From an uncultured Methylobacterium sp. (lineage in GTDB: Bacteria > Pseudomonadota > Alphaproteobacteria > Rhizobiales > Beijerinckiaceae), in the NCBI GenBank assembly GCA_963990595.1, contig CAXDNE010000008.1, positions 370 to 64,369 of the forward strand: 64,000 bases of DNA. Direction: 5' to 3'. The first letter of the stretch is position 1. Every line of letters begins with the position of its first letter. Under the pieces are notes generated by a model, which was given only the letters and a program-made list of their open reading frames with translations, had not been told where the DNA came from and did not search any database. The translations under genes and the position numbers were made by a program. This document shows, piece after piece, positions 672 to 49,292 of this stretch.

Positions 672-2909
672 TTAATCGTCGCCGGGCGCGATGGTGGGCG
701 TCGTGCCCGGCGAGGCTGCATCGATCAGCCGGCGCACCTGACGAACAAACCGCTCGGCATCGGATTTGTCGTCCTCAGGGACACGGTCGTTCGCAAGGTG
801 CTCAGCGACGGCATCGGCCAGCGCCGACGCATCGAACACATCCCGGTCCGGTAGCCTATCGAGATCCCGGTAGTTGTAGGGCGGCGCGCTTGAAGTGACG
901 CGTCCCATCTGGGCGAAGGCGAGATCCACCGCGGCGATCGCATCGGGCAAACGCGTCGCTGCCCAGGACGAGGGGCCGGTCGCTCCGGCGAAGGTTGCCC
1001 AGACCTTGAGGGTCAGCCCGATCATCGGTTTGGTTTCGAGCGTACCCGTCTCGGCGGCCCGATTGATGCGTTCGGCCACGGCAGTCCCGAGGAGGTCGAT
1101 TTCGGAACGGGTCAGCAGCGGCGGATCCCTCGGCTCATGGCTGCCCCAGACGACTTGGTGGTCGCGACCGATGACAGCCACGAGCAGCGCCGAGGCATGG
1201 ACCCCCGTCGTTGGCTGGGCAGCGATCTCAAGGAGCGCTTCCAGGCGCTGGGTTTCCGGGATGCGTTCGACGGCGAGGATGATGAAGCTGTCGAGCCGGT
1301 CCGCGTTGCCGACCTTGAAAAAGTCGGAGACCTCGTCGCGCACCCTCATCATGTCTTCCGCGAACTCCAGGACGACGCCGATCAGGCACGGTTCGGCCGC
1401 GGCACCGTCCGCCAGCATCCCGGAGATCTCTTCGAGCAGCGGTGCGGCAAACGATATGTCGTCCGATCGCCGTCGCGCGAACGCATCACGGAACGCGTTC
1501 CGGATGAGCTCGGGGTCCCCCAATCCCTCGCGGATGCGCCGCAACTCGCTGGCGAGGATCTCGTCGAGGGGCGCCGAGAAGCGGAAGTAGGCGTCGAAGC
1601 CGTGAGGCGATCCGATGCGTCGGCCCGAGGTCGCGGGGACCCGCGAGCGATATACGAGGTGGCGGGGTCTCAGGCGCTCTTGGATGGCGGGGAGCATGCG
1701 GCAGAGCAGATCCACGACCTCGTCGCGGCCATTCGGCGATATGCTCTCGGTGATCAATCGTCCGAGTGCCTTCTCCGCCTCCTCGCCCATGAACGTGGCC
1801 TCGCCCGTGACGAAGCTCCGATTGTCCCGGATGAGGGCGTAGGTGCGAGGCTCGAAGTGCCGAAGCATCTCGACCGCCACGAGATCCGGCACGTACGCCT
1901 CACCGGCTACGGCCGGCCAGGCGACCGAGAGGGCGTTGCAGAGGCGGGTCACGTCGCGCGGTGAGATGAGGTAGCGTTTGAACGCGAGGCGAGCCACGGC
2001 GCCCCAGTCCTCCTGCTCCATCGGCGGGTTCGGCCCGACGATCGCCGTCAGCCGGTCGAAGGTCAGTTTGCGTAGGCCGGTAGGCCCGGGGGGCGGGAGG
2101 TCGAGTTCGACCTGCACGATCTTTTCGAGATAGGTCGGCAGGCGGCGCTCTTGGTCGCCTTGCGAGGGGGCCGCGCCGAGGGCCCTGTCGACGATCGTCC
2201 GGTCGTAGACGAGCAGGTGGATGACGTTCGGCAGGTTGCCGAAGGTCTTCACCAGCGTGAGGACTTGGCGCACTTCCTCGGGCTGCAGCCGATCGAGGTC
2301 GTCGATGATGACGAGGATCTTCGTCTCGATCCGGCCGAGTTGCGTCCGCAGATCGCCGATCCTGTCGTCCAGCGAGCGGGCCTGGAGACGATCCGCCCCG
2401 TAGTTGAGGGCGCCGGTCACGACCGATTTGAGGGCCGCGGCTCCCGGCGCCGCCGCCCCACCGCTCAACGCCACAGCGCCGACCGCGACGGCCCCGCCGA
2501 CCATCTCCGCGCCCCCACGGATCAGGCCTTCGAGGAAGCGCCGTGTACCTTCCGGTGCGCCCTCTCCCAACGTCTCGTCGATGACCCGCGCCAATTCGGA
2601 GACGTAGGCGGCTGCGAGGGTTTCCAGTCCTGAGAAGAGCCAAGGATTGAAGGGGCGGATCTTGAGCCGTCGCTCATCGGGAACGTCGGCTTCAAGCTCC
2701 CGGATCGCCTCCAGCGTCAGGTTGATGGCGCTGCTCTTACCCATGCCCCACTGCGCCTGCACGCCGATGACGAAGCCGTCGATCGGTGCGCGCTGGACGA
2801 TGCTTCGTGCCAACGCCTCGGCGAAGGCCTGGTAGTGCAGGCGATCCTCCCCCTTCGTCGAGATCGGCCGGTCTGCGGCGAGCTGAGCCGTGGCAACGTG
2901 ATCGGTCAT
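672..2909 (-). CDS. KAP family P-loop NTPase with long C-terminal extension
   Basis: N-terminal D-x-L (EDRLHYQAFA), Walker A QWGMGKSS, FNPWLFS, hydrophobic insert GGAVAVGAVALSGG, Walker B IIDDLDRL, YLEKIVQ and PRDVTRL: the KAP motif order. Alternative GTG start at 2930. Confidence 0.9.
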   Translation of the reverse strand: MTDHVATAQLAADRPISTKGEDRLHYQAFAEALARSIVQRAPIDGFVIGVQAQWGMGKSSAINLTLEAIRELEADVPDERRLKIRPFNPWLFSGLETLAAAYVSELARVIDETLGEGAPEGTRRFLEGLIRGGAEMVGGAVAVGAVALSGGAAAPGAAALKSVVTGALNYGADRLQARSLDDRIGDLRTQLGRIETKILVIIDDLDRLQPEEVRQVLTLVKTFGNLPNVIHLLVYDRTIVDRALGAAPSQGDQERRLPTYLEKIVQVELDLPPPGPTGLRKLTFDRLTAIVGPNPPMEQEDWGAVARLAFKRYLISPRDVTRLCNALSVAWPAVAGEAYVPDLVAVEMLRHFEPRTYALIRDNRSFVTGEATFMGEEAEKALGRLITESISPNGRDEVVDLLCRMLPAIQERLRPRHLVYRSRVPATSGRRIGSPHGFDAYFRFSAPLDEILASELRRIREGLGDPELIRNAFRDAFARRRSDDISFAAPLLEEISGMLADGAAAEPCLIGVVLEFAEDMMRVRDEVSDFFKVGNADRLDSFIILAVERIPETQRLEALLEIAAQPTTGVHASALLVAVIGRDHQVVWGSHEPRDPPLLTRSEIDLLGTAVAERINRAAETGTLETKPMIGLTLKVWATFAGATGPSSWAATRLPDAIAAVDLAFAQMGRVTSSAPPYNYRDLDRLPDRDVFDASALADAVAEHLANDRVPEDDKSDAERFVRQVRRLIDAASPGTTPTIAPGDD

Positions 2910-3082
2910 GTCGTCTCGCTTCGGCTTCACATTGCGGTCGAAAGGAGTAGGGGAGCAGGCTCTCCGCCGGCCGTGTTAGGGTCGGATCACGACGTCTTGC
3001 GCCCCACGGGGCGATAGGATCGAGGGAGGCCCGGCTCCCATCGACCCTCGCCGGTCGAATGGCCCGATCACGGATCTCGCGA

Positions 3083-3424
3083 TCAGCACCAGTCGACCTT
3101 GCCCCTGCGGAGCCAGAAATGGCTTTTGCAACCAACCTTGCGCCAGACGCTTGGCGCAAGGGATGCGGTGCCATCCCAGTGCTCTTTCAATCTCCAGCCC
3201 GGTCGGTCTCCAGGGATGAGAGAGAGTTTGATGGTCTCACCGCACCCGCAGGGGCAATCGAAGGCGGCGAACCACCGATGGCCGTCCTCGCCCACGACGT
3301 AGACGGTGCGAGGCGTGAGGGCGTCGGGCTCCTCCTCGACGAAGGCGGCGGTGTGTCGCCCGCGGCGGCGGGAGACCCAACGCAGGGCCCCCCGCAGTTT
3401 CATGAGGATGGGCCCCGTCATCAC
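3083..3424 (-). CDS. DUF6527-like small Cys/His protein (typical partner of prokaryotic E1/E2/JAB operons)
   Basis: Motifs CPCGCG, SLAPSVW and GCKSHFW, with terminal WC. The start overlaps the stop of the JAB-E1 gene. Confidence 0.8.
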   Translation of the reverse strand: MMTGPILMKLRGALRWVSRRRGRHTAAFVEEEPDALTPRTVYVVGEDGHRWFAAFDCPCGCGETIKLSLIPGDRPGWRLKEHWDGTASLAPSVWRKVGCKSHFWLRRGKVDWC

Positions 3425-4815
3425 GCGGCCCTCGCGAGCATGTCGAGATGGGGCCGATTGAGGAACGGGACCATGTCGCCCCGACCGACGTACCGGGCCA
3501 GCGCCTCGTCGACGCCCACGTCTGGCAAGTTCTCCCAGTATCCGGCCGTCAGGCTGAACGTCTGTGTCGCGAACCCGCCGTTCGGTTCGAGCCGCGACGG
3601 ATGCAGCCTGAGCAGGAACTCCATGACGGCAAGGCTGGAGAAGAGCCCATTCAACGCCCCCACGGCCGGCCGGTCCTCCGGAACCCCGCGGATGTAGCCG
3701 CGGGCGAGCCTGTCCTCGTAGGCCGCCGGATCCTGCCGGCGGAGGCTCTCGGCCTCCAGCATGCCATCCGTGTAAAGACCGCGCCCACGCAAGCTGGAAC
3801 GACCGGGCTGGAGGTAGTGGACCGAGCCGCAGATCTGCTTGACCCCGCCGTGCCCGTCGGCGTCGAGCATCACGCCGACATCGAAGTAGGCCAAGCCGTA
3901 GAAGGCAGTGAGCCGCCCCAGAAGATCACGGCCTTCGACGCCGTCCATGCAGCCGAAGACGATGTCGCAGGTCGAGACCGACTGCAGAGCTGCGGGGTGG
4001 GAGAGGTCGTGCGGGAACGCCTCCACGCGTGAGCCGAGGCCGAGCCGGTCCACGAAATCGGCGAGCACCTCGACCTTGGGCCGTCCAATATCGGCCCACG
4101 TGGTGTTCACGATACGGTTGAGGTTCTTCTCCTCGACCTTGTCCGGGTCGACGAGCACGATTTGGCCTACACCGAGGCGGGCAACCTGGTCGACGAGGGG
4201 GCCCCCGGTGCCGGAGCAGCCGACGATTCCGACCCGCAGCCCGCGGACGGTCTCGAAGGTCCCGCGTCCGAAGGCTTGGGCGTGCCGCTTGGCGAATTCG
4301 GGGACCTGCTGATCCTCGCTTGTCGGCGGCCTCCAGAGCCGGATGTCGTCGCCGACCAGGCAGACGTGGTGCAGTTCGCCGTGCTTCCCGTCGGCATGAT
4401 GGGCGCGGGCCAGCACGGCGCCGGATGGCACCATGATGGCGCTGAGGTGCGGGGCGCCGTCGTCGACCCAGGCGTGGATGCTGCCGAACAAGGCGTCGTC
4501 GGCCGCGTCATCGACCTCGCTGAACTGGAGGTTCCCGCCGGGGTGGGAGTGGATCTTCGCCACCGCCATCCCACGCCGCGCCGCCTTTTCCAGCAGGGGT
4601 TCAAGGAAGGAGGTCGGCCAGGTCACGCGCCGATCGGTCCGCTGGCAGGCGTCGTGGGGGACCGGCACGATCTCGTGGACGACGAGCTTGGCGCAGCCTG
4701 GCGACGCGGCCCGGCCGCACAGCATCAGGGCGACGGCCTCGCGGCCGTCACCCGGGAACAGATGGGAGTGGATCGCAGCGTGCTGGGCTGCGGTAAGGGC
4801 GAGCGTGACGCGCAT
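3421..4815 (-). CDS. JAB/MPN peptidase fused to ThiF/E1-like adenylating enzyme (464 aa)
   Basis: True start MRVTLAL at 4815 (TGATG overlap with the upstream gene). JAB motif E...HSHPGGNLQFSEVD; E1 motifs VGIVGCSGTGG, DPDKVEEKNLNR, GRPKV and FGCMD. Confidence 0.9.
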   Translation of the reverse strand: MRVTLALTAAQHAAIHSHLFPGDGREAVALMLCGRAASPGCAKLVVHEIVPVPHDACQRTDRRVTWPTSFLEPLLEKAARRGMAVAKIHSHPGGNLQFSEVDDAADDALFGSIHAWVDDGAPHLSAIMVPSGAVLARAHHADGKHGELHHVCLVGDDIRLWRPPTSEDQQVPEFAKRHAQAFGRGTFETVRGLRVGIVGCSGTGGPLVDQVARLGVGQIVLVDPDKVEEKNLNRIVNTTWADIGRPKVEVLADFVDRLGLGSRVEAFPHDLSHPAALQSVSTCDIVFGCMDGVEGRDLLGRLTAFYGLAYFDVGVMLDADGHGGVKQICGSVHYLQPGRSSLRGRGLYTDGMLEAESLRRQDPAAYEDRLARGYIRGVPEDRPAVGALNGLFSSLAVMEFLLRLHPSRLEPNGGFATQTFSLTAGYWENLPDVGVDEALARYVGRGDMVPFLNRPHLDMLARAA

Positions 4816-5510
4816 CAGGCGGCCCCCACTTCCTTGGCGAGGTTGTGCTCGACCACGGCGAGGTGCGTGCCGATGTCGTCGATGTCGGGCCGCCACGGGT
4901 TCAGGCCGGTGCGGTGCCGCGACCAGCCCTGCCAGTGCTTGCCCTCGAAGTTGTCGCCGACGAGCGCCCGGATCTGCGCGCCGTCCGTCCGGGCCAGGGG
5001 CGGGTGGAAGTACCACATGTCGATCTGCGAGGTCGGATACCCCGGCAGGAGCCGCATCATCAGGTCGGTCCGTTCCGGCGCGTAGCCGGCCCGGACGGGG
5101 TAGCCGCGGATGACGACGCGGGGGACGCCCGACTCCTGGACGGTCTCCCAGCGCAGGCCCAAGGCGTCGAGGGTCTCGCGGTCGCCCTCCGGCAGGACGA
5201 AGTCCCGGCGCGGGGGGAGCGCCTGCTCCCCCTCGGTCTGGTCCAGCGGCAGGGTGATGAAGCGCTCCTCGCCCTGGTCGCTGACATGGACCACCTCGTC
5301 GAGGCCGATCGGCTTCATCGTGGCGCCGATCTTCTGGAGGAGCTTGTAGCGCTCCGGGTACTCCTTGCCGGCGATGACGAGGAGGTCGCGGCCGGTCAGG
5401 TCCGGCAGCGCGTTCTCGTACTCCGTCTTGTCGATGCGGAAGCGGTAGACCCGGATCTTGCGGGTGCCGTCCTCGTCGTCGTGGTCGTTGGTGTGGCCGT
5501 TGGTCGTCAT
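4815..5510 (-). CDS. Ubiquitin-like (multi-ubiquitin type) domain fused to prokaryotic E2/UBC family E domain
   Basis: aa ~20-94 look beta-grasp-like (FRID...LTGRDLL...IGLDEVV...ERFIT) and end in QTEG94. The C-terminal part has PGYPTSQIDMWYFHPPL and WQGWSRH, typical of family-E prokaryotic E2. AGGAG RBS upstream. Confidence 0.82.
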   Translation of the reverse strand: MTTNGHTNDHDDEDGTRKIRVYRFRIDKTEYENALPDLTGRDLLVIAGKEYPERYKLLQKIGATMKPIGLDEVVHVSDQGEERFITLPLDQTEGEQALPPRRDFVLPEGDRETLDALGLRWETVQESGVPRVVIRGYPVRAGYAPERTDLMMRLLPGYPTSQIDMWYFHPPLARTDGAQIRALVGDNFEGKHWQGWSRHRTGLNPWRPDIDDIGTHLAVVEHNLAKEVGAA

Positions 5511-5653
5511 GACCGCTCCTTTCGTTCTCTCGTTGGATCCGGTGCTTCCCGCACCGTCGAGAGGTTGATCGAAAGGGACCGGCGCACCCGGAAACGGTCG
5601 CGCTCACTTTTTTTACAGGATCGATCTCGGCCTTCCCGCGGGCTTGCCGAACC

Positions 5654-8600
5654 TCAACGCTCCCTGGACAGCGGGTGCCGCACGAAGGCGCCGCCTGCCG
5701 GCAGACCGGGGCAAGCGAAGAGGTGTGGGCAGCGAAGGCAGCCACGGCCAGGATTGGGAGCGAAGTGGCCGCCGCCGATGTCGGCCATGTGCTGGGCGAC
5801 GGCGGCGACAAGCTCGGCCCGCTTGTCAGCCGCGACCGCCCGGCGGGTCGAGCCAGTCAGGTGGATCGCCTCGACGGTCACGGGCTCGCCGAAAGCCTGT
5901 TCTGCGGCGGCATCGAGGATCGCGTACTCGAATTCCTTTTCCAGAGAGGCCATGGCTCTGCGCGTGGCGATCCGCCTCACGATCAACCGGCCGTCTCGGG
6001 TGCGCACCACGTCGTGCGCCCGGGAGAGAATGTGTCCGCCGCCGGCAGCCAGACGCAAGGCCCTGGGCGCCTGCCGGCCTTCCTCGTCGCGCGTGCCTAC
6101 GAGAAATCTCAACATCTCCTCGGCGATCCGCCTGTATGCGTTGGCGTGGCCGTGGTCGGCCGGCCCGTGCTTTTCCCAGGCACCCTCGAACGCCGCCGCA
6201 AAACCCGCCGGCTCCGCCTGGGCGGCGTCGAAGTTCCGATCGAGCCAATCGATCATCGCCCGGACTGCGTTGTGCATCCGGATGTACGGGTTCTCGTCGC
6301 GGCGGCCGCCGAGGCTGAGGACGTAGGTGTATAGGAAGCGTAATCCGCACTTCCCGTAGGCATCGAGATGCTGGTGGTCGAGCTCGACCGGAACGCTCCA
6401 GGCGACCGGCACCGGCACGGGGGCAGCCGCCATGGGTGGTGCCGGGAGTGGGGGGATCGGACGTGTCGGGCCCAGCGTGGCGGCGATGCGTGCGTTGTAA
6501 GCGGAAGGGTTCCGCCGCCGCGCGCCACCCTTTTGCATCGTGGAGCGGTACAGGCGCAGGCCGTCTCGCGCGCGGGAAAGAAGCACGAAGAACAGACAGG
6601 CTTCCTGCTCGTCGTGGCCTGCCATGCACGCCTGGAGACCGGTCATGCCCACGCTGCCGGCGATGAGGCCGTCCGGCGGTGGGCAATCCGGCGCCTTCGC
6701 GCTACGGGGCAGTCCCGTGGCGATCATGCCCGGGGCATGCACGAGGTCGAATTCGAGCCCCTTGCTTCCATGGATCGTCATCAGCCGGACGGCATCGAGT
6801 TCCAGGGCTGCGTCCGGGAATTGCCGCAGCGAGCGCTCTTCGTTCAGCCGGATCAACCTCCTGATCTGACGAGTGACCTCGAAGGTCGGGAATTGCCCTT
6901 CAATCGGCAGGGACCGAAGGAAGTTGAGGAATTGCCAGACCGCGACGCCGGCCATCCGGTCGCCCAGCGTGGCGGCCCCCCCGATGCGTCTGGCGATCCC
7001 GAGCCTGTCGAGCACCAGGGCGCTCGCGATATTCCAGGGATGGGCGCGGGGCTCGAAGCCAGCGCAGGCTTCTCGGAGCCGCCGCAGGGATTCCTGCCCT
7101 TGCCGGCTCAGGCCGGGGATCTCGTCCGCCCCCTCCAGCCATGCCAGCGGATCGGTGGCCGCATCCCTGAGATGGGCCGCGACCAAGGCAACGTCGCCGA
7201 GCCCCATCCCGACTTCCGGGATCATGGCGACCCGTACCAGCGTCGCGGCGCGAGGGTCGTGGAACAGGGCGAGCAGGCTGAGCAGATCCTTGATCTCGGG
7301 CCGCTCGAAGAGGGGCCCGAGGTAGAGGACGGGGATGTTCCGAGCCGCCAGGCCGCCGGCGAAGGCAGCGAGCCGGTCGTTGGCCGTGCAGAGGACAGCT
7401 TGGTCGCGAAAGGCGATCCCCTCGGCGTTTGCCTCGGCGATTGAAGCGGCGACCAGAGCGATCTCGTCGTCGGGCGTTCCCGCCTCGTGAAGGACCGGTC
7501 GTTCGCCGCACCTCCCTCGATCGGGGGTAAGACGGAGGTCGCCAATGCGCCTAAAGGCCTCGACGCTCGAAGCGAAGGCCGAGAAGGTGTCGATGATCTC
7601 GCCGCGCGAACGATAGTTGACGGTCAGCGCGCCGTCCGTCGCGGTGGGGTAATCTTCCTTGAAAGCCCCCATACTTGCCGAGGTCGCGCCCCGGAAGCGG
7701 TAGATCGACTGGCGGGCATCGCCCACGACCCAGAGACGTTCACCGCCGTCCGCGGCGAGCGCACCGATCAGGCGGACGGTGGCGAAATTCACATCCTGGT
7801 ATTCGTCGACGAGGATGTGACGGTGCCGGAGCGCCAGCGCCTTGGCCACCTCGGGATGGTCCGCCATCAAGCGCACCGGCTTCATGATGAGATCGCCGAA
7901 GTCCAGGGTGTCATTGTCCGCGAGGAGCCGTTCGTAGGCTGCGTAGACCATCGCCTCCTCCGTCGCGCGCTTCGCCCGTAGGCGCGTCGCCTCGTCGGTC
8001 GCGGCACGGCCCATAGCCTCCGCGAGTTCGGCGTAACGAACGTGGTCGACGAGTTCGTCCTTCGCCCGCGAGATGGCAGCGAGGATGTCCGCGAGGTTGT
8101 CCTCGGGATCCCAGAGATCCCGGTAGTGATCCAATGGGAGGGCCGGGATGATCTCCTCAAGCATCGTGATGGCCGTGGCCTTGTCGACGAGGCGCGGGCT
8201 CGGGGGAAGCTTGAGACGGTCATGGAAGCGACGGACGATATCCAGGCCGAAGGCGTGGAAGGTACCGATCCAGACGGAAGCGGCCGCCTCGGGGTGTGAA
8301 AGGGCGAGCCGGTCCATCAGCTCGCCTGCCGCCTTGTTCGAGAATGTCAGGACGAGAATGCCGTTCGGGTCCACGCCCTCGTCGATGAGGCTCGTGACCC
8401 GGCGGATCAGGGTCCTGGTCTTACCAGTGCCGGGGCCGGCCTGGAGGAGATAGGGGCTGCCGCGGTGCGCGACGGCGACGTCCTGGCTTGGATCGGGTCG
8501 AAGCGCCCCGCCGGCGGGAGCGGCGACCGCCTCAGGAACCGGCGGCAGCAGGAGGGCATCGAGCAGTTGTTGCGTGACGACGTCCTCCCGGATCCCGAGC

Positions 8601-9082
8601 CGGGCGGCGATATCCGCTACGCTCATGCCCGCGGCATGGTGCTCGCGCACGACGAAGCGTGGCAACACGAGCTCGCGGGCGAAGAGATCCGCTTGGACTT
8701 CCCGCCGTTCGCCTCGCCCGTAATCGACGAGTCTCTCGACGGCGGAACCGCTCTCCGCCGAACGGCTGGGATCAGTGTGGTAGGTGAGAACCGGCACCGC
8801 GCACCCGTGCATCGCCACGTGGCCGAGTTCGTGCCCGATCAGGAGGGCGTCTTCTCCAGCCGATCCCGTCTCGCCGTAGAGGATACCTTTCGTCTCGGGG
8901 TCGATGATCGCCTTGCACCCGCGCAGCGAGACGTCGCCCGCCTGTGCAGGTTGATGCCAGAGGTCGTAGGTCGGGAGGGCCCGCACGACGACGTCGTAAG
9001 GCTGCCAAGGGTCGCCGCCGCTGGCGACGACCTCCCGGTGGATACGTTCAGCCCTCTTTCTTGCGGCCTCAATCGGATCCAC
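5654..9082 (-). CDS. ImmA/IrrE-type metallopeptidase fused to UvrD/PcrA-like SF1 helicase and a C-terminal PD-(D/E)XK-like (AddB/Cas4-like) domain
   Basis: N-terminal GHELGH and EVQADLFARELVLP; helicase motifs AGPGTGKT, DEYQD, GDARQSIYRFRGA, LMTIHGSKGLEF and VLLSRAR; C-terminal YGKC...CLRCPHLFAC four-Cys pattern. Confidence 0.88.
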   Translation of the reverse strand: MDPIEAARKRAERIHREVVASGGDPWQPYDVVVRALPTYDLWHQPAQAGDVSLRGCKAIIDPETKGILYGETGSAGEDALLIGHELGHVAMHGCAVPVLTYHTDPSRSAESGSAVERLVDYGRGERREVQADLFARELVLPRFVVREHHAAGMSVADIAARLGIREDVVTQQLLDALLLPPVPEAVAAPAGGALRPDPSQDVAVAHRGSPYLLQAGPGTGKTRTLIRRVTSLIDEGVDPNGILVLTFSNKAAGELMDRLALSHPEAAASVWIGTFHAFGLDIVRRFHDRLKLPPSPRLVDKATAITMLEEIIPALPLDHYRDLWDPEDNLADILAAISRAKDELVDHVRYAELAEAMGRAATDEATRLRAKRATEEAMVYAAYERLLADNDTLDFGDLIMKPVRLMADHPEVAKALALRHRHILVDEYQDVNFATVRLIGALAADGGERLWVVGDARQSIYRFRGATSASMGAFKEDYPTATDGALTVNYRSRGEIIDTFSAFASSVEAFRRIGDLRLTPDRGRCGERPVLHEAGTPDDEIALVAASIAEANAEGIAFRDQAVLCTANDRLAAFAGGLAARNIPVLYLGPLFERPEIKDLLSLLALFHDPRAATLVRVAMIPEVGMGLGDVALVAAHLRDAATDPLAWLEGADEIPGLSRQGQESLRRLREACAGFEPRAHPWNIASALVLDRLGIARRIGGAATLGDRMAGVAVWQFLNFLRSLPIEGQFPTFEVTRQIRRLIRLNEERSLRQFPDAALELDAVRLMTIHGSKGLEFDLVHAPGMIATGLPRSAKAPDCPPPDGLIAGSVGMTGLQACMAGHDEQEACLFFVLLSRARDGLRLYRSTMQKGGARRRNPSAYNARIAATLGPTRPIPPLPAPPMAAAPVPVPVAWSVPVELDHQHLDAYGKCGLRFLYTYVLSLGGRRDENPYIRMHNAVRAMIDWLDRNFDAAQAEPAGFAAAFEGAWEKHGPADHGHANAYRRIAEEMLRFLVGTRDEEGRQAPRALRLAAGGGHILSRAHDVVRTRDGRLIVRRIATRRAMASLEKEFEYAILDAAAEQAFGEPVTVEAIHLTGSTRRAVAADKRAELVAAVAQHMADIGGGHFAPNPGRGCLRCPHLFACPGLPAGGAFVRHPLSRER

Positions 9083-9701
9083 GTTCGGCCTCTGCCATAT
9101 CGAGCAGCCGTTTCTGCTGCTCGGCGGTCAGGCCCGACGTAGCAACCGCTTCCTCGAAGGTCTGCTTTTTCCCCGCCGCGGGTTTGCCGTCCGACTTCGC
9201 CATCATACCGAGCGGCATCGAGGCGGACCGCGCAAGACTTGCATGCACCGCACTTACTTCATGCCCAAGCTCGTCGGCAATTATCTTGGATAGTTTTCTA
9301 GGAAACGCGGATGCCTCGATAAGACCATCTTTTATTTTAATCAAAAAAAGCGGACTTAAATCAAGACGTGCAGCTAATCGTGGAAAGGCTGCTCCGCTAA
9401 CCCCCGAAAAAACGTTAGCCATTCTGGCTGCGTTAGGTACGGGTGTCGTCGCGGGCTCGGACTTTATCCCGGCCTGGAAACGGGCCCATGCGGAAGACAC
9501 CGTCTTCCTCGTCGACGCATCAGCAGCCGGCAATGTGCGAGCGGGTTCCAGGACCATCTCGACCGCAAGTTCCGTCAGCTCCCGACGCAACTCAGGGTGT
9601 TCCTTCGCGTAGGTTTCGAGGCGTCTTGGGGTCGGCTCCCCTTCCGTTGCAAACTCCATCAGTACGTCGCGCATGCCGCGCATGGTGCTGGTCGTTGTCA
9701 T
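9069..9701 (-). CDS. Hypothetical protein, putative anti-sigma / HTH-containing partner of the sigma factor and IrrE peptidase
   Basis: 210-aa ORF overlapping both neighbours (ATGA with the sigma gene, 14 nt with the helicase gene). Helical composition with an HTH-like C-terminal half (LAARLDLSPLFLIKIKDG). Function is inferred from position only. Confidence 0.6.
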   Translation of the reverse strand: MTTTSTMRGMRDVLMEFATEGEPTPRRLETYAKEHPELRRELTELAVEMVLEPARTLPAADASTRKTVSSAWARFQAGIKSEPATTPVPNAARMANVFSGVSGAAFPRLAARLDLSPLFLIKIKDGLIEASAFPRKLSKIIADELGHEVSAVHASLARSASMPLGMMAKSDGKPAAGKKQTFEEAVATSGLTAEQQKRLLDMAEAERGSD

Positions 9702-10471
9702 CGTCCCTCTCCGAGTTCACGACGCAGCTTTTCGTACGCCTTCTGAAGGCGATACCGTATCGCCCGGTCGGAGACGTCGCAAAGCTTCGCAATGTTTTCC
9801 GCGTCGTCGCCCTCGATGGGGTGCCCCTTGAGGACGAGCGTGACAGCCACCCTTTCGTGGTCTGGCAAACGGTCGATCGCGCGAAGAAGCTCGTTCCGGA
9901 AACGTTCTCTTTCCTGTTCGGCGCCCTCCGCCTGGAAAAATTCCCGCAGCTGCTTGGCTAGGACTGGTAGGGGCTGCCCTTCCTCGTCGTGCATGTCCTC
10001 GACGTGATCCTCCTTGGCGGACATCCGTCCGGAGGCGCGCAGCACGTCGATGCGCAAGGCCGCGAGCGCGCTGGCGAAACGCACCTCGAAGTAGTCGAGA
10101 CGCTCGCCCGATTGGTTGCGGTCCTCCACCAGGAGATCCACGAACCTATCGGCCACCTCCTGACGCAACTCCTCCACGTCATAGAGCGAGCTTGGCCGAA
10201 CAGACCCCTTCAACGATCGGACGACGCGGTCGAGGAGGATCTCGAATAACTGCGCGAAGCGGTCGTCGGAATTGTCTAGACGGGTCGAGCGGATGAGGTG
10301 GAGCAGGCATTCGGGCTCGATGAAGCCCGGTGCTCGCGGATCATCGAGGCGTGCCTCGCGGATGACGGTGTCGAGATCGAGCCCCGTTGCACGATCTATG
10401 GCGGCGTCGACAGAAGCTGTCCTGGCATAGAGTTCGCCCGTTTTTTTACGTTTCGTGAGGGGAGGCGGCAT
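9698..10471 (-). CDS. Sigma-70 / ECF-like sigma factor
   Basis: Region 2-like (EELRQEVADRFVDLL...FASALAALRIDVLR) and a clear region 4 HTH (AIDRLPDHERVAVTL...NIAKLCDVSDRAIRYRLQKAYEKLR). Confidence 0.75.
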   Translation of the reverse strand: MPPPLTKRKKTGELYARTASVDAAIDRATGLDLDTVIREARLDDPRAPGFIEPECLLHLIRSTRLDNSDDRFAQLFEILLDRVVRSLKGSVRPSSLYDVEELRQEVADRFVDLLVEDRNQSGERLDYFEVRFASALAALRIDVLRASGRMSAKEDHVEDMHDEEGQPLPVLAKQLREFFQAEGAEQERERFRNELLRAIDRLPDHERVAVTLVLKGHPIEGDDAENIAKLCDVSDRAIRYRLQKAYEKLRRELGEGR

Positions 10472-10594
10472 GCCGAATCCGTGTGGCGTTCCAGCGACGC
10501 TACCTCAAGATGATTTGTCGCCAAGTTCAAGGTGCGGGCCCCGTCCTTCCGTCCAATCTGAGCCTCAACGATTCTTCTGTTCGGCACCCTGTCC

Positions 10595-11409
10595 CTAACG
10601 GGCCGGAGATAGGTTGACCGCGCGCCCGCCTTCGAACCCGCTGGCCTCCTCGACGTGCCCGCGCGGGTTGCAGGCGACCCGGGTGGGCCCGACGCGGTAA
10701 TCGGCGGCGTGGTGGAGGTGGCCGTGGATCCAGAGGTCCGGCCCCCTCGCGTGGACCAGGTCGCGCAGGTCCGAGGCGTAGCACCAGCGCAGGTTGACGT
10801 GCGGATCTGGCAGGCTCTCGGGGAGCGGCGCGTGGTGGGTCACGACGACCGTGGGGCCGGGATGCGGCTCCGATAGGACGCGGTCTAGGAACGCGCGGGT
10901 GCGCCGGTGCATGGCGAGCACCTCGCCGGGCTCGATCCGGTGCCGCGAGCTCGGGCCGGTGCGGATCCGGCGGTAGTCGACCATGCCGAACCGCCCTTGC
11001 GCTGACCGCGTAGCCTGCGTCAGGGTCACGGATCCGAGCCGGAAATCGGTCCAGAGCGTGCCGCCGGCGAACCGGGTTCCGCCGATGGTGACGGCGTCGT
11101 CCATCAGCAGGTGAATGCCGTGACGGGCGGCGAGATCGCGGCCCCGGGCGACTTGGTCTTGGATCGTGTAGCGGTCCTCGCCCCGATCCCACAGAAGTCG
11201 TGGTTGCCGGGCACGTAGACGACCGGCACCCGGGGCAGGCGCTCGGCGAGCCAGCCGAGGGCGCGGGTCCGGGGCGTGTGTACGTCGCCGGCGACGATGG
11301 CCGCGTCGAACCCGCCCGTCGGCGCGTGCGCGGCTGGGTCCCAGGTGTTCTCCGGCTATTCCTGGTGCAGGTCGGAGAAGATCCTGAGGCGCTGAGGGCG
11401 GCCGGTCAC
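10595..11409 (-). pseudogene. Calcineurin-like metallophosphoesterase, inactivated
   Basis: GTG start at 11409 gives RIFSDLHQE* (in-frame TAG), then AGDVH...YVPGNHDF, a frameshift near 11195, and it continues GTLWTD...VVVTHHAP...WIHGHLH...NPRG. Confidence 0.85.
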
Positions 11410-11960
11410 GGGTCGCCTCCGTTTCGGCCCGCATTCTCGGCGAGGCGGGTGAGGATCTCGTCGATGGCGACGGGGCGGAAATCGAAGCAGTCCACGCCGA
11501 CGTTTGTGCTGGCCGCGGTGCCGGGCAGCCGGCCGTGGGAATGGCCGTAGAGGTGGATGTCGCCCCGGTGCTGGCCGGGCCAGACGCGGTGGGCGTAGTG
11601 CGAGCACCACACGCCCAGGGTCGTGCCGTCGGGGCGCGGGACGACGACCCGGGCGACGTCGACGACGCCGTCCCAGGGCAGGCGGGCCGCGATGCGGTCG
11701 TGGTTGCCGCGGACGAGGAAGCGTCGGCGGCCGTTGAGCCGGCCGAAGATCGCGCGTGCTCTGTCCTTCGGGCAGCGGTGACAGAAGTCGCCGAGGTGCC
11801 AGACGGTGTCGCCGGGGCGGACGGCCGCGTTCCAGCGGGCGATCAGCGCCTCGTCGTGCTCCTCGATGGTGGCGAAGGGGCGGTTCAGGCCGAACCGTGC
11901 GCCGAGTGCGGCCCGGTGCCCGAAATGACTGTCGGCGGTAAGCAGAATTCGGGATGGCAT
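11406..11960 (-). CDS. Metallophosphoesterase (phage-type small phosphoesterase)
   Basis: MPSRILLTADSHFGH, HDEALIARWN, WHLGDF, RGNHD, HLYGHSHG and NVGVD motifs. Confidence 0.88.
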   Translation of the reverse strand: MPSRILLTADSHFGHRAALGARFGLNRPFATIEEHDEALIARWNAAVRPGDTVWHLGDFCHRCPKDRARAIFGRLNGRRRFLVRGNHDRIAARLPWDGVVDVARVVVPRPDGTTLGVWCSHYAHRVWPGQHRGDIHLYGHSHGRLPGTAASTNVGVDCFDFRPVAIDEILTRLAENAGRNGGDP

Positions 11961-12002
11961 GGGAGCCTCGCGCGGGTCGCGGAGGCTCGACGCAGGGGGC
12001 CG

Positions 12003-12090
12003 CCATGGTGCCCGCCATGGTGGCAATAGACGGCCTCCCATGACGCTGTCCATGGTGGCGTATCGCTGTCGCCCATAAGGGTCTCCATGG
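12003..12090. repeat. CCATGG palindrome cluster (copy 1; 4 perfect plus near variants)
   Basis: CCATGG at 12003, 12015, 12050 and 12085; CCATGA at 12038. Confidence 0.8.
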
Positions 12091-14411: not shown

Positions 14412-14747
14412 GCCGGAAAATAATCCGAACGGCCTGCATTTTTCCCTGGACGCATTCAACTTTCCACGATCGGGCGTAGCCTCTTCTCGTTTCCGAGCGG
14501 GCAGCAGTTCGGGGCGGTCTACGGTCGATGATCGAGTTCCATGCCTACTTCTGTGTCGGGGAGGACCCCGCCGGCGAGAAGCGTCCGATCCTGCTGCGGC
14601 CCGGCTTGCGAACGTGATGTCGGCTGTGCAGGCCGACGGATGTTGCGCCACTGCGAGATATCCACAGCCATCCACATCCGAACTCCACCGGGATGCCTGA
14701 AATTTCTTAGGCCACGCTCCGCCACTTGGCGGGAACCCACCGCGTAT

Positions 14748-14762
14748 GTTCATCTTTTGTTC
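14748..14762 (+). promoter_or_regulatory. Alphaproteobacterial LexA (SOS) box
   Basis: Perfect GTTC-N7-GTTC (GTTCATCTTTTGTTC), 21 nt upstream of the umuD start. Confidence 0.9.
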
Positions 14763-14783
14763 CGTAGGTTTCGGAGCGAGCGC

Positions 14784-15212
14784 ATGCAGGCCCATACTGT
14801 CACGATCGGGCTGCCCACCCCCGTCCCCATCCTCGCCAAGGCAGTGCGTGCCGGCTTCCCAAGCCCGGCCGACGACTTCATCGAGGACGAGATCGACCTT
14901 CAGCGGCTGCTGATCGCAAACCGCCCGGCGACCTTCCTGGTGCGGGTGGCCGGCGACAGCATGATGCTCGCCAAGCTGTTCGACGGCGATATCGCGGTGG
15001 TCGACCGCTCGCTCAAGCCTCGCAATGGCGACGTGGTGGTGGTCGACGTCGACGGGGAGCGGTCGTTCAAAGTCTGGCGCCGCCAGGGCCCCCGGGTGAC
15101 CCTGCATTTCGCCAACCCCCGCTTTCCCGAGTTCCAGCTGTCCCCGGACGCGGTCATCGAGGTCTGGGGCGTCGTGTCCGGCTCGGTGAACCCGAGGCGA
15201 CGGAGCGAATGA
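14784..15212 (+). CDS. umuD: UmuD-like S24 peptidase (SOS mutagenesis)
   Basis: VRAGFPSPADD, TFLVRVAGDSM and DGERSFK (Ser/Lys dyad); ATGA overlap with umuC. Confidence 0.92.
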   Translation: MQAHTVTIGLPTPVPILAKAVRAGFPSPADDFIEDEIDLQRLLIANRPATFLVRVAGDSMMLAKLFDGDIAVVDRSLKPRNGDVVVVDVDGERSFKVWRRQGPRVTLHFANPRFPEFQLSPDAVIEVWGVVSGSVNPRRRSE

Positions 15213-16494
15213 GCGACCGGGCCTACGCGCTCTCGGATGGCAACAGCTTCTACTGTTCGTGCGAGCGAGTTTTCGATGCCCGGCTCGCGCGGATGCCGGT
15301 GATCGTGCTGTCCAACAACGACGGCTGCGCGATCGCGCGGACCGCCGAGGCCAAGGCGCTGGGGATCGGCATGGGCGATCCCTGGTTCAAGATCCGGGCA
15401 CTGTGCAAGGCCCGGAGCGTACGGGTCTACTCGTCGAACTACGCCCTCTACGGCGACATGTCGGCCCGGGTGAACGCGGTTTACCGGGACTTCTCCCCGC
15501 GCATCGAGATCTACTCGATCGACGAGAGCTTTCTGGACATCTCGGACGTGCGCGAGCGGGAGCGCGTGACGCTCGCCCGCGACATGCGCGAGACGGTGCG
15601 GGCCTGGACGGGTATCCCGACTTGCGTCGGGATCGGCGCCACGAAGACGCTGGCCAAGCTCGCCAACCACGTCGCCAAGAAGAACCCCGATCTCGGCGGA
15701 GTCTGCGACCTGACCGACCCGGCCGCCTACGACCACTGGATGGTGCGGATCCCGCCCGAGGACATCTGGGGCGTCGGGCCGGCGAACGCCCGCAAGCTCG
15801 GTGCGCTCGGTTGCGAGAGCGCCGCCGACGTGCGCGACCTCGACACCCGAGTGGTTCGCAAGGCCATGACGGTCGTAGGCGAGCGCCTGGTGCGGGAGCT
15901 GCGCGGCGAGGCCTGCCTCGACCTGGAGGAGGTCGCCGCGACACGGAAGGGCTGCGCGGTCACTCGCAGCTTCTCCGACCGGGTCGAGGATCGCGCGACG
16001 ATGGAGCAGGCTGTGGCGGCCCACGCGACCCGGCTCGGGGAAAAGCTGCGGCGGGAGGGGCTCGGGACCAACCACGTCACCGTCTTCTTTCACACCTCCG
16101 AGCACGACCGGACCCGACCGCAGCGATCGGTCTCGACGGTGGTGACCCTGCCCGAGGCGTCGAACGACAGCCTCGTGCTGGTGAAGGTCGCCCTGCATGG
16201 CGTTCAAAAACCTGGCGGGACGGCTTTCGCTACTCGAAGGCCGGGGTCGTCACAACCGACCTGCTGCCGCTCCACACCTCGCAGCGGGCGATGCCCGGCC
16301 TCGGCCAGCTCGACCGCGAGCACGGCGCCGCGCTGATGGCGGCGCTCGACGCCTGCAACCGCCGCTTCGGGCGCGGGGCGGTCGTGCCGGCCGCGGCCGG
16401 GTTCGCTCAGCAGCGGGGATGGTCGACGAAGTTCGAGATGCGCTCGCCGCGCTACACGACTCGGCTTGAGGAGATCCCGGTCGTGGCGGCCTGA
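15209..16494 (+). pseudogene. umuC: UmuC-like Y-family DNA polymerase, frameshifted at ~16205
   Basis: DGNSFYCSCERVF, VLSNNDGC, YSIDESF, GIGATKTLAKLAN. A one-base loss in GGCGTTCAAAAACCTGG shifts the frame; the C-terminus KTWRDGFRYSKAG...SPRYTTRL lies in another frame. Confidence 0.88.
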
Positions 16495-22194: not shown

Positions 22195-22559
22195 CGGGTC
22201 CGGACGATCAGATCTGGCTCGGCCATCCCCGGACATCCGGCGAGCCAACCGGCCCAAAGCGCCCTGCCCCTCAGGGCCAACGTGAAATGCCCGCCCCCCT
22301 CGACGGCCCCCATAACCCATTCCTTTTCGTCGGGGGCGACGCCGTCGTAGACGTGGGCATCGGCCCGGCCGCCCCGCGTGTCGTAGCACCGAAGCTGCCA
22401 CCGCGTGCCGGCCGCAGTCCTCTCGAAAACCAGGCGGGCGAGGACGGCCCCGTCCGCCTGAACATCTCGGATTATCGCCAACCACCGGCCGGGCCCCACC
22501 CCCGGAGAGGGGGCGAGCCCGGCCGCGGCGAGCGCTAGGGCGAACGCCGCGGCCTTCAC
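22191..22559 (-). CDS. Hypothetical exported protein
   Basis: Signal-peptide-like N-terminus MKAAAFALALAAAGLA; coupled to the upstream phosphoesterase gene. Confidence 0.55.
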   Translation of the reverse strand: MKAAAFALALAAAGLAPSPGVGPGRWLAIIRDVQADGAVLARLVFERTAAGTRWQLRCYDTRGGRADAHVYDGVAPDEKEWVMGAVEGGGHFTLALRGRALWAGWLAGCPGMAEPDLIVRTR

Positions 22560-49135: not shown

Positions 49136-49292
49136 GTCGTAGCCCGAACGGCTCTGTCAACAAGTGGAGCGGGAATACGGGTATCGGCACCCGCCATGTC
49201 TGCTTTGGAGATGCCATCGAACCCCTGCGAACGACTGGCTTGGGCGCAAAGTCGAATGTCCGCTCGCGATGGCGATCCGGCGTGACGGGGTT

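What the first reader, a model, noticed from the sequence alone, without database searches (positions are those of the whole stretch)
3421..5510. Cysteine-free conjugation chemistry: E2 has no Cys, E1 lacks catalytic and Zn-binding Cys, and the Ubl is fused to its E2
Seen: the 231-aa Ubl::E2 protein has zero cysteines, with S197-x-H199 in WQGWSRH. The E1 has no Cys after QICGSV (~135 aa): the usual CxxC positions read GRSSL and DEAL, and a GYIRG Tyr sits in the crossover loop. The Ubl ends internally at QTEG94 and must be cut from the E2, and a JAB peptidase is fused to the E1. Established: Bub systems are reported to use oxyester rather than thioester intermediates. Inference: JAB liberates the Ubl at G94, then transfer runs via E1 (Tyr?) and E2 Ser197.
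Basis: partly seen in the sequence, partly recalled or inferred. Interest (0 to 1): 0.75.

Follow-up and report, generated by a model that had tools for sequence, protein, structure and literature searches.

The report
Cysteine-free bacterial ubiquitin-like (Bub) operon
This is a textbook-complete copy of a recently described bacterial "Bub" protein-tagging operon that works with tyrosine and serine instead of cysteine, so the chemistry is already known, but it sits behind a conserved sigma-factor/peptidase-helicase-nuclease control cassette that I could not find described.

Summary
Window 5510..3083 (minus strand) holds three translationally coupled genes.

This is a Type I Bub operon (BubAB-BubCD-BubE; Ye et al. 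2024, PMC11601596). BubCD matches Citrobacter BubCD (PDB 9EA4, E=2e-77). The E2 model superposes on Citrobacter BubB (TM 0.94). Every published catalytic residue is present and invariant in 60-70 homologues.

The finding is real but already known: a new member of a known kind. A Methylorubrum orthologue is in the paper's own alignment.

Caveats:
- Zero Cys alone is not unusual (P about 0.10).
- "No Cys after C329" is not a family trait.
- The CxxC mapping could not be confirmed.

Beyond the finding, the three upstream genes travel with Bub I, Bub II, Bil and CBASS operons across phyla. They are an ECF-like sigma, a 210-aa unknown and an M78 peptidase-UvrD-nuclease. They share a promoter-like motif present twice per locus. 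This looks like an undescribed controller module.

The parts
4815..5510 (-). bubAB: Ubl::E2 pre-protein, 231 aa. BubA is aa 1-94 (nt 5510..5229), a single beta-grasp after a disordered acidic/His-rich N-terminus. BubB is aa 95-231 (nt 5228..4818), a UBC-like E2 without Cys.
   Evidence: Pfam Multi_ubiq and Prok-E2_E. PDB 9EAV_D BubB, E=2.7e-20. AF2 model pLDDT 89, with a low-confidence linker at 91-100. Foldseek hit 9EAE_C, TM 0.94, rmsd 1.3 A.
5229..5231 (-). Codon of G94, the predicted C-terminal Gly of mature BubA and the JAB cleavage site (LPLDQTEG|E).
   Evidence: Invariant in 60 of 60 homologues. E95 aligns with the first residue of Citrobacter BubB (residue 230), so G94 corresponds to G229.
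4914..4922 (-). Codons S197-R198-H199, the E2 active-site Ser-x-His. The partner Asp D164 is at nt 5021..5019.
   Evidence: S197, H199 and D164 are invariant in 60 of 60 homologues. They align with Citrobacter S333, H335 and D299 (paper).
3421..4815 (-). bubCD: JAB/JAMM peptidase (about aa 1-165) fused to a ThiF-type E1 adenylation domain (about aa 170-464). Its ATG overlaps the bubAB stop codon (TGATG).
   Evidence: PDB 9EA4 Citrobacter BubCD, E=2.4e-77 over residues 5-457. E26, H89, H91, S99, D102, the G199-G204 loop, D223, N231, R234, K247 and Y374 are invariant in 70 homologues.
3694..3696 (-). Codon of Y374, the crossover-loop Tyr and proposed E1 nucleophile.
   Evidence: Invariant in 70 of 70 homologues. 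None of the 70 has a Cys in the region equivalent to 345-385. It corresponds to Citrobacter Y370.
3083..3424 (-). bubE: DUF6527 protein, 113 aa from a GTG start that overlaps the bubCD stop (112 aa if it starts at ATG 3421). Predicted C4 zinc site and Ser-His protease dyad.
   Evidence: Pfam PF20137, E=3e-24. C57, C59, C61, C99, S92 and H102 carry the same residue numbers as in Citrobacter BubE and are invariant in 70 homologues, except C61 at 69 of 70.
5565..5594 (-). Promoter-like motif TTTCCGG-N16-CGATCAA, 55 nt upstream of the bubAB ATG, in the 143-nt gap after the helicase gene.
   Evidence: Found at the equivalent place in 12 of the 14 independent loci examined for it. The window holds 2 matches against 0.01 expected by chance, and 76 loci fetched without the cassette have no strict match.
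5654..9082 (-). Context gene: M78 (ImmA/IrrE-type) peptidase + UvrD-type SF1 helicase + PD-(D/E)XK nuclease with four invariant Cys, 1142 aa.
   Evidence: Pfam domains. In 30 homologues, the HExxH motif (H84, E85, H88), E128, Walker A 216-222, D426/E427 and C912/C1115/C1118/C1124 are invariant. Its neighbours are conserved.
9069..9701 (-). Context gene: 210-aa protein with no known domain, here called 'p210'. It overlaps both neighbouring genes. Candidate anti-sigma factor or cleavable repressor.
   Evidence: No hit in Pfam, NCBIfam or PADLOC. 1474 cluster representatives in a profile search. Always found between the sigma-like gene and the helicase gene. AF2 pLDDT 72. The conserved K173-P174 pair lies in a low-confidence linker.
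9698..10471 (-). Context gene: ECF-type sigma-70-like protein, 257 aa. It contains the second copy of the promoter-like motif at 9873-9902 (-), 201 nt before the p210 start.
   Evidence: TIGR02937 at 44.6 bits against a cut-off of 42.9. Pfam Sigma70_r4_2, E=7e-8. Motif evidence.

Best explanation
The region is an intact Type I Bub (bacterial ubiquitination-like, formerly '6E') operon of a Methylobacterium-like alphaproteobacterium: bubAB-bubCD-bubE.

Most likely mechanism:
1. The JAB/JAMM domain of BubCD (E26, H89, H91, D102) cuts the BubAB pre-protein after G94. This releases a 94-aa single-beta-grasp Ubl and a 137-aa E2.
2. The ThiF-type domain of the BubCD dimer adenylates G94, using R234 and the GxGxxG loop.
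3. Y374 on the Cys-free crossover loop takes the Ubl as a tyrosyl oxyester and swings to the E2.
4. S197 of BubB, activated by H199 and D164, takes the Ubl as a seryl oxyester and passes it to a lysine on a target.
5. BubE (zinc site C57/C59/C61/C99, dyad S92/H102) removes conjugates.

What is shown here: gene content and order, domain folds, and the identity and invariance of every catalytic residue.

What is inferred by homology to the Citrobacter system: the cleavage site, ATP-dependent conjugation and the roles of Tyr and Ser.

What is inferred by the original authors as well: that the Tyr and Ser adducts are covalent intermediates.

The biological role (antiphage or stress response) and the targets are unknown for the whole family.
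For: - Pfam architecture of all three genes.
- The stop and start codons of the three genes overlap.
- BubCD against PDB 9EA4, E=2.4e-77, full length.
- BubB against 9EAV_D, E=2.7e-20.
- AF2 model with pLDDT 89, whose best Foldseek hit is Citrobacter BubB (TM 0.94, rmsd 1.3 A, 36% identity). Its N-terminal domain hits multi-ubiquitin structures, including BubA 155-229.
- Residue-by-residue mapping onto the published catalytic residues.
- Invariance of G94, D164, S197 and H199 in 60 BubAB homologues at 36-86% identity, with no conserved Cys column.
- Invariance of E26, H89, H91, D102, R234 and Y374, with no Cys in the crossover loop, in 70 BubCD homologues. Invariance of the BubE zinc site and dyad (C61 in 69 of 70).
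- Gene order bubAB-bubCD-bubE in 78 of 80 genome loci from many phyla.
- Published biochemistry and structures for the Citrobacter orthologue (PMC11601596).
- GC3 of bubAB is 0.98, typical of a well-adapted, expressed gene in this genome.
Against: - Nothing in the sequence contradicts membership.
- The weak points lie in the family-level mechanism. In the preprint I read, the oxyester intermediates are deduced from loss-of-function mutants and crystal or AlphaFold geometry, not trapped.
- The BubA~BubCD band seen in vitro persisted with Y370F and was judged off-pathway.
- No Bub operon has yet protected E. coli from a phage.
- The Lys that Citrobacter BubB auto-modifies (K358, equivalent to K226 here) is Arg in 42 of 60 homologues, so that read-out may not transfer.
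- No usable expression data were found for this locus.
Confidence: 0.85

Rival explanations
1. The components are the same, but Tyr374 and Ser197 are not covalent carriers. The Ubl acyl-adenylate on the E1 is attacked directly by the target lysine, as in amide-forming ThiF relatives such as MccB and PaaA. The E2-like domain acts as a substrate-positioning scaffold. Y374, S197, H199 and D164 act as general base, oxyanion or positioning residues.
For: In the preprint the oxyesters are inferred, not trapped. The only E1-linked band persisted in Y370F. Oxyesters are intrinsically poor acyl donors, as the authors' own discussion notes. MccB and PaaA appear among the sequence relatives of the E1 domain.
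Against: An invariant Ser sits exactly where E2s carry the catalytic Cys, flanked by an invariant His and Asp. That arrangement resembles a nucleophile triad. In the crystal structures the crossover-loop Tyr is juxtaposed to that Ser. An E2 fold would be an odd choice for a mere scaffold.
Confidence: 0.1
2. The E2-like domain is a catalytically dead RWD-like Ubl-binding module (the 2006 prediction for '6e' operons), and the E1 serves another adenylation-dependent chemistry such as sulfur transfer.
For: Iyer, Burroughs and Aravind 2006 classed these UBC-like domains as inactive because they lack the Cys (PMC1779556). The E1 hits ThiF and MoeB models, though well below their family cut-offs.
Against: Conjugation was reconstituted in vitro and in cells for the Citrobacter and E. 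coli systems. The active-site residues are invariant. There are no rhodanese or sulfur-transfer partners nearby. No full ThiF/MoeB-type pair of CxxC motifs is visible: one candidate position is never Cys and the other is Cys in only 46 of 70 homologues. The mapping itself is unconfirmed.
Confidence: 0.02
3. The operon is a decaying remnant in a genomic island and does nothing in this strain.
For: It lies in a variable region with a transposase, umuDC and other accessory genes. No expression evidence was obtained.
Against: All three ORFs are intact and translationally coupled, with every catalytic residue preserved. Codon usage is strongly host-like, with GC3 of 0.98. The same six-gene unit is conserved at 72-93% protein identity in other Methylobacterium and Methylorubrum genomes.
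Confidence: 0.03

Closest known systems
Type I Bub operon of Citrobacter sp. RHBSTW-00271 (BubAB, BubCD, BubE; Ye, Gong, Chambers and Corbett 2024, PMC11601596; PDB 9EA4, 9EA5, 9EA8, 9EAE, 9EAV)
   Same: Same three genes in the same order, with the same fusions. All catalytic residues are identical: the junction Gly, the JAB E/HxH/D, the adenylation Arg, the crossover Tyr, the E2 Ser-x-His plus Asp, and the BubE C4 site plus Ser-His dyad. The BubE residues even carry the same numbers.
   Different: The Ubl here has one beta-grasp domain (94 aa), whereas Citrobacter has three (229 aa, filament-forming). Single-domain Ubls are themselves common, at 40% of Bub Ubls (PMC11601603). The upstream controller is a sigma / p210 / peptidase-helicase-nuclease cassette rather than CapW, CapH+CapP or CapK+CapS.
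Type II Bub operons (BubA, BubBD E2-E1 fusion, BubE)
   Same: Same Cys-free Tyr/Ser logic and the same BubE. They are found behind the same upstream cassette on Klebsiella, Acinetobacter, Leptolyngbya and Cereibacter plasmids.
   Different: In Type II, the E2 is fused to the E1, there is no JAB domain, the Ubl is a separate gene, and the Ser is accompanied by Lys+His rather than His+Asp. The window has the Type I layout.
[quoted passage not shown]
   Same: A Ubl with a C-terminal Gly, a JAB peptidase, an adenylating E1, a UBC-fold E2, and a lysine isopeptide product.
   Different: Those systems use catalytic Cys thioesters on the E1 and E2. Here the E2 has no Cys at all and the E1 crossover loop has none.
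CapH+CapP, and ImmR/ImmA or DdrO/IrrE: an M78 peptidase that cleaves a repressor after DNA damage
   Same: An M78 HExxH peptidase is encoded directly after a small partner protein and upstream of an immune operon. Lau et al. 2022 note 24 CBASS systems in which capH and capP sit beside a sigma-70-family factor.
   Different: Here the M78 domain is the N-terminus of an 1142-aa UvrD helicase / PD-(D/E)XK nuclease. The partner (p210) has no detectable HTH or CapH similarity. A dedicated sigma-like gene is always present. Standalone CapP-like M78 genes of about 250 aa occur upstream of 22 other Bub loci and form a separate class.

Membership tests
Type I Bub operon | Gene complement and order: Ubl-E2 fusion (BubAB), JAB-E1 fusion (BubCD), DUF6527 (BubE) | tested here: met
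   Pfam Multi_ubiq+Prok-E2_E, Prok-JAB+ThiF, and DUF6527, on three consecutive overlapping minus-strand genes.
Type I Bub operon | Conserved Gly at the Ubl/E2 junction, cleaved by the JAB domain | tested here: met
   G94 is invariant in 60 of 60 homologues and aligns with Citrobacter G229. The cleavage itself was not tested.
Type I Bub operon | E2 lacks a catalytic Cys and has an invariant Ser with an invariant His and Asp | tested here: met
   0 Cys. S197, H199 and D164 are invariant and correspond to S333, H335 and D299. The model superposes on BubB with TM 0.94.
Type I Bub operon | E1 crossover loop lacks Cys and has an invariant Tyr | tested here: met
   Y374 corresponds to Y370 and is invariant in 70 of 70. 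None of the 70 homologues has a Cys in the region equivalent to 345-385.
Type I Bub operon | Intact JAB/JAMM zinc site and catalytic Glu; intact adenylation site | tested here: met
   E26, H89, H91, S99 and D102, and G199-G204, D223, R234 and K247, are all invariant.
Type I Bub operon | BubE with a C4 zinc site and a Ser-His dyad | tested here: met
   C57, C59, C61, C99, S92 and H102 are present and invariant in 70 homologues, except C61 at 69 of 70.
Type I Bub operon | ATP-dependent Ubl conjugation through Tyr and Ser oxyesters | not testable with these tools
   Biochemistry exists only for the Citrobacter and E. coli systems. There is no chemical trapping in the version I read.
Canonical thioester E1-E2 cascade (eukaryotic-like, Bil, CBASS Cap2) | Catalytic Cys in the E2 and in the E1 crossover loop or Cys domain | tested here: not met
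   No Cys in the 231-aa protein, and no Cys beyond residue 329 of the E1.
ThiF/MoeB sulfur-carrier adenylyltransferases | Two CxxC motifs forming a structural zinc site; partner ThiS/MoaD and sulfur-transfer genes | tested here: inconclusive
   No CxxC occurs after the Rossmann core. All NCBIfam ThiF/MoeB hits fall far below their cut-offs. The exact equivalence of GRSSL and DEAL to the CxxC sites could not be aligned reliably. No sulfur-transfer genes are nearby.
CapH+CapP regulator pair (for the upstream cassette) | Standalone M78 peptidase (about 250-300 aa, with a C-terminal GAF-like domain) next to a small Xre-type HTH repressor | tested here: not met
   The M78 HExxH motif is present and invariant, but it is fused to UvrD + PD-(D/E)XK in an 1142-aa protein. 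The partner p210 shows no significant HTH or CapH match. Standalone M78 genes upstream of other Bub loci are a separate group.

The most novel reading that the evidence does not exclude
The three genes upstream of the operon may form a fourth, so far undescribed class of 'controller of adjacent pathway' module for bacterial conjugation-type immune operons. The genes are an ECF-like sigma, the p210 protein and an M78 peptidase-UvrD-PD-(D/E)XK/Fe-S nuclease.

Proposed logic:
1. The helicase-nuclease engages DNA ends or ssDNA, from phage DNA or from damage.
2. Its M78 domain cleaves p210, an anti-sigma or repressor-like partner, in its conserved disordered linker around K173-P174.
3. The freed sigma then fires two cognate promoters of the form TT(T/A)CCG(G)-N15-17-CGATYRA. 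One lies inside its own gene and drives p210 and the helicase. The other lies directly upstream of the cargo operon.

[quoted passage not shown] The -35-like half co-varies between the two sites of a locus.

It may overlap with the 24 'capH+capP plus sigma factor' CBASS cases mentioned without detail by Lau et al. 2022.
Probability: 0.45. Interest if true: 0.6.

Novelty: new member of a known kind. Interest (0 to 1): 0.33.

Why it matters
The finding itself adds no new chemistry. The Cys-free Tyr/Ser relay, JAB processing of the Ubl-E2 fusion and the DUF6527 protease were all published for this family in 2024, and structures are in the PDB.

The window does offer a compact, single-beta-grasp Type I Bub system from a culturable, non-pathogenic methylotroph lineage. 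That could be a convenient model for the two open questions in the field:
- directly trapping the tyrosyl and seryl oxyesters;
- finding the targets and the biological role.

What could matter more is the context. A conserved sigma / p210 / peptidase-helicase-nuclease cassette, with its own promoter-like motif, sits in front of Bub, Bil and CBASS operons. If it is a DNA-sensing transcriptional switch, it would explain how a further share of these immune operons is turned on. It would also give a defined promoter-sigma pair to test.

Tried and rejected
- **CxxC mapping.** hhalign of a 70-sequence BubCD profile against E. coli ThiF and MoeB gave confident local alignments only to residues 324 and 310. 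A forced global alignment had zero confidence beyond that. I kept only a topological argument.
- **Expression evidence.** 23 public runs hold the locus. The one possible RNA run, and two others, showed flat, low contig depth across all genes. That is indistinguishable from contaminating DNA, and no transcript ends were visible. Uninformative.
- **Near-identical plasmid.** None found.
- **tRNA genes as island anchors.** None in the window.
- **Generic sigma-70 promoter and terminator scan of 2800-10800.** No promoters, and terminators at chance level.
- **p210.** No Pfam, NCBIfam or PADLOC family. The AF2 model is only moderately confident (pLDDT 72). Foldseek found nothing below E=1, with weak Xre-HTH-like hits only. 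A profile search against PDB sequences found nothing. Its function stays inferred.
- **Supplementary Table S1 of Ye et al.** Not held. I could not check how the authors classified Methylobacteriaceae operons or this cassette.
- **Literature searches for the cassette.** They found no description. The closest was one sentence in Lau et al. 2022 about capH and capP beside a sigma factor.
- **The helicase-nuclease as an integral Bub component.** Rejected, because the same cassette precedes Bil and CBASS operons.
- **PADLOC.** It has no Bub models. It hit only the generic 'E1-E2' and GajB-like helicase models.
Full report
**Anatomy.** On the minus strand, three genes run head to tail with overlapping stop and start codons.
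- 5510..4815 encodes a 231-aa protein.
- 4815..3421 encodes a 464-aa protein. Its ATG shares one base with the preceding TGA.
- 3424..3083 encodes a 113-aa protein. Its GTG start overlaps the preceding TGA; an ATG follows at 3421.

Pfam assigns Multi_ubiq + Prok-E2_E to the first gene, Prok-JAB + ThiF to the second, and DUF6527 to the third.

**Observation.** A script on the translations confirms every residue-level statement.
- The 231-aa protein has no Cys.
- QTEG ends at G94.
- WQGWSRH is at 193-199.
- The last Cys of the E1 is C329, in QICGSV.
- GRSSL is at 338-342, DEAL at 436-439 and GYIRG at 373-377.

Lack of Cys is not remarkable on its own. With 1.0% Cys in 33 window proteins, a 231-aa protein has none with P=0.10, and 4 of 33 proteins here have none. 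What is remarkable is where the missing Cys residues would have been.

**Identity.**
- The E1 fusion matches the crystal-structure sequence of Citrobacter BubCD over its full length (9EA4, E=2.4e-77).
- The E2 part matches Citrobacter BubB (9EAV_D, E=2.7e-20).
- An AlphaFold2 model of the 231-aa protein (pLDDT 89, with a low-confidence linker at 91-100) finds Citrobacter BubB as its best PDB match (TM 0.94 on the target, rmsd 1.3 A). It finds bacterial multi-ubiquitin beta-grasp domains for its N-terminal half.

The system is described in Ye, Gong, Chambers and Corbett (bioRxiv 2024, PMC11601596). Type I Bub operons consist of BubAB, BubCD and BubE. In that paper:
- BubCD's JAB domain cleaves BubAB after a conserved Gly.
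- The E1 crossover loop has no Cys but an invariant Tyr (Y370).
- The E2 has an invariant Ser with His and Asp (S333, H335, D299).
- Y370F or S333A/H335A abolishes conjugation.
- BubE is a Ser-His protease with a C4 zinc site.

A 2006 survey had already noted these operons ('6e') and thought the Cys-less E2 was inactive (PMC1779556).

**Residue mapping and conservation.** Counting through the HMMER alignments, with the two-residue tag offset of the PDB chains, gives the correspondences below.

| Window | Citrobacter |
|---|---|
| E26 | E28 |
| H89 | H91 |
| H91 | H93 |
| D102 | D104 |
| R234 | R227 |
| Y374 | Y370 |
| G94 | G229 |
| D164 | D299 |
| S197 | S333 |
| H199 | H335 |

- In 60 BubAB homologues (36-86% identity), G94, D164, S197 and H199 are invariant. 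No column is conserved as Cys, and half of the E2 domains have no Cys at all.
- From 80 genome loci spanning many phyla I extracted 70 distinct BubCD and 70 distinct BubE sequences.
- In BubCD, all JAB and adenylation residues and Y374 are invariant. None of the 70 has a Cys in the crossover-loop region.
- BubE C57, C59, C99, S92 and H102 are invariant, and C61 is conserved in 69 of 70. They carry the same residue numbers as in Citrobacter.
- The gene order is kept in 78 of 80 loci.

- Position 436 (the D of DEAL) is Cys in 46 of 70 homologues and C329 is Cys in 56 of 70. A Cys-free C-terminal third is therefore not a family trait.
- The equivalence of GRSSL and DEAL to the ThiF/MoeB CxxC sites rests on element order only. 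Profile alignments to E. coli ThiF and MoeB are reliable only up to residues 324 and 310.

**Mechanism and its status.** The most likely mechanism is the published one:
1. JAB cleavage after G94.
2. Adenylation of G94.
3. Transfer to Y374.
4. Hand-off to S197, assisted by H199 and D164.
5. Transfer to a target lysine.
6. Reversal by BubE.

Shown here: architecture, folds and the catalytic residues. Inferred by homology: all activities. In the version I read, the oxyesters themselves are inferred from mutants and geometry and were not trapped. The only E1-linked band persisted in Y370F. A rival in which Tyr and Ser act non-covalently and the adenylate is attacked directly therefore keeps about 10%.

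The biological role is unknown for the whole family. No phage protection had been shown (restated in PMC13373217).

**Novelty of the finding.** The chemistry, the fusion, the processing site and the Tyr/Ser residues are all in the literature. A Methylorubrum extorquens BubAB is in the paper's own alignment. The locus is a new member of a known kind. A single-beta-grasp Ubl is also ordinary, at 40% of Bub Ubls.

**Context, beyond the finding.** The closest genomes are Methylobacterium and Methylorubrum (93% and 74% BubAB identity).

Upstream on the same strand, with overlapping stops and starts, lie three genes:
- an ECF-type sigma-like gene (10471..9698);
- a 210-aa gene with no known domain (9701..9069);
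- an 1142-aa gene combining an M78/ImmA-type peptidase, a UvrD helicase and a PD-(D/E)XK nuclease (9082..5654).

In 30 homologues of the large protein, the HExxH motif, Walker A and B, and four Cys (a probable Fe-S cluster) are invariant.

This trio is not a Methylobacterium peculiarity. The counts below cover the independent loci found outside Methylobacterium and Methylorubrum.
- At 41-48% identity it recurs in the same order in front of Type I Bub operons. These are in Xanthomonas, Nitrosomonas, Aquitalea, Duganella, Microvirga and Roseovarius.
- It precedes Type II Bub operons on Klebsiella, Acinetobacter, Leptolyngbya and Cereibacter plasmids.
- It lies divergently beside Bub in Robbsia and in a Pyrinomonadaceae MAG.
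- It precedes a Bil-like operon on a Bradyrhizobium plasmid and in a metagenome contig.
- It precedes a CBASS operon (CD-NTase, E2-CBASS, patatin).
- In Pseudomonas koreensis an IS66 element follows it.

On plasmids, at least 39 of the 60 best helicase hits have a DUF6527 gene 2-3 kb downstream. The p210 family has 1474 cluster representatives.

**The promoter-like motif.** A promoter-like motif, TT(T/A)(A)CCG(G)-N15-17-CGATYRA, occurs twice per locus on the coding strand.
- One copy lies 47-60 nt before the cargo operon. In the window this is 5565-5594 (minus strand).
- The other lies inside the sigma gene, 201-216 nt before p210. In the window this is 9873-9902 (minus strand).
- The window has 2 matches against 0.01 expected by chance. 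The 76 loci then fetched without the cassette have none with the strict pattern.
- A relaxed pattern hits 4 of 70 cassette-less loci once each.
- The -35-like half co-varies within loci. It reads TTTCCGG at both sites in most Type I loci, and TTACCG at both sites in the Type II loci and in the Bil plasmid locus L092.
- Two divergent loci lack the motif.

Standalone CapP-like M78 genes occur upstream of 22 of the other Bub loci. That agrees with the published 31% for CapH+CapP and shows the fused cassette is a separate class.

[quoted passage not shown] Lau et al. 2022 mention 24 CBASS systems with capH and capP beside a sigma factor, without detail. I therefore rate this as a plausible, partly anticipated, but undescribed controller module. 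Its function is inferred only.

**Other context.** A full-length PifA-like KAP NTPase (672..2930, PADLOC E=1.5e-86) lies just outside the unit shared with Methylobacterium sp. 2A. Homology to that genome ends 6 nt after bubE. Two metallophosphoesterase genes, umuDC and a Mu/IS-type transposase follow on the other side. Housekeeping genes start near 29 kb.

**Verdict.** Interest is low to moderate for the finding itself, with a more interesting lead in the upstream cassette.

Noticed in passing
window 5654-10471 (-), with motifs at 5565-5594 and 9873-9902 (-); also L001-L010, L083-L099: [quoted passage not shown] It carries a co-varying promoter-like motif, TT(T/A)CCG(G)-N15-17-CGATYRA, twice per locus. 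It looks like an undescribed DNA-sensing controller module.
   Followed up: partly
window 9069-9701 (-): p210 is a sizeable family with no Pfam domain: 1474 representatives at 50% clustering, all about 195-225 aa. The model shows an N-terminal helical bundle, a second helical domain, and a conserved K-P pair (K173, P174) in a disordered linker before a C-terminal helix pair. The linker is a candidate M78 cleavage site. No structural or sequence relative was found in the PDB.
   Followed up: partly
window 672-2930 (-): A 752-aa KAP-family P-loop NTPase matches the PADLOC PifA model end to end (E=1.5e-86). PifA is the F-plasmid protein that excludes phage T7. The gene lies immediately next to bubE but outside the unit shared with Methylobacterium sp. 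2A, so the region looks like a defence island.
   Followed up: partly
L083-L087, L096, L097 (Xanthomonas, Nitrosomonas, Aquitalea, Duganella): In beta- and gamma-proteobacterial versions, the cassette plus Bub unit is preceded by a conserved AAA ATPase (about 388 aa) and a Peptidase_S8 subtilase (about 740 aa). This pair is absent from the window.
   Followed up: no
window 3421-4815 (-), residues 329 and 436: In BubCD homologues, C329 (56 of 70) and a Cys at position 436 (46 of 70, often in C-P-x-L) tend to occur together (41 have both, 9 have neither). This may be a remnant of the ThiF-type zinc site or a disulfide. The window protein keeps C329 but has D436.
   Followed up: partly
window 10595-12053 (-): Two overlapping ORFs upstream of the sigma gene, at 10595-11434 and 11406-12053, are conserved with Methylobacterium sp. 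2A as part of the same block (homology to 11999). The second has a calcineurin-like metallophosphoesterase domain; the first had no Pfam or PADLOC hit. A third such phosphoesterase (22556-23731) weakly hits PADLOC candidate PDC-S10.
   Followed up: no
window 14541-16336 (+) and 19227-20765 (+): A umuD-like (Peptidase_S24) and umuC-like (IMS) pair, and a Mu/IS-type transposase (rve + Mu-transpos_C_2), mark the left 26 kb or so as accessory or mobile DNA. Beta-oxidation, ETF, FadL, lactate utilisation and P450 genes fill the rest of the window.
   Followed up: no
window 48513-49217 (-): A 234-aa ORF carries only the C-terminal 'little finger' (IMS_C) part of a Y-family DNA polymerase and lacks the catalytic IMS domain. 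It may be a truncated dinB-like pseudogene.
   Followed up: no
L017 3048-3310: In the Pyrinomonadaceae MAG, the divergent intergenic region between the sigma-like gene and bubAB lacks the motif. It has two direct copies of TATGCAAAAGCGTGACAAAAA, a possible operator for a different regulator.
   Followed up: no
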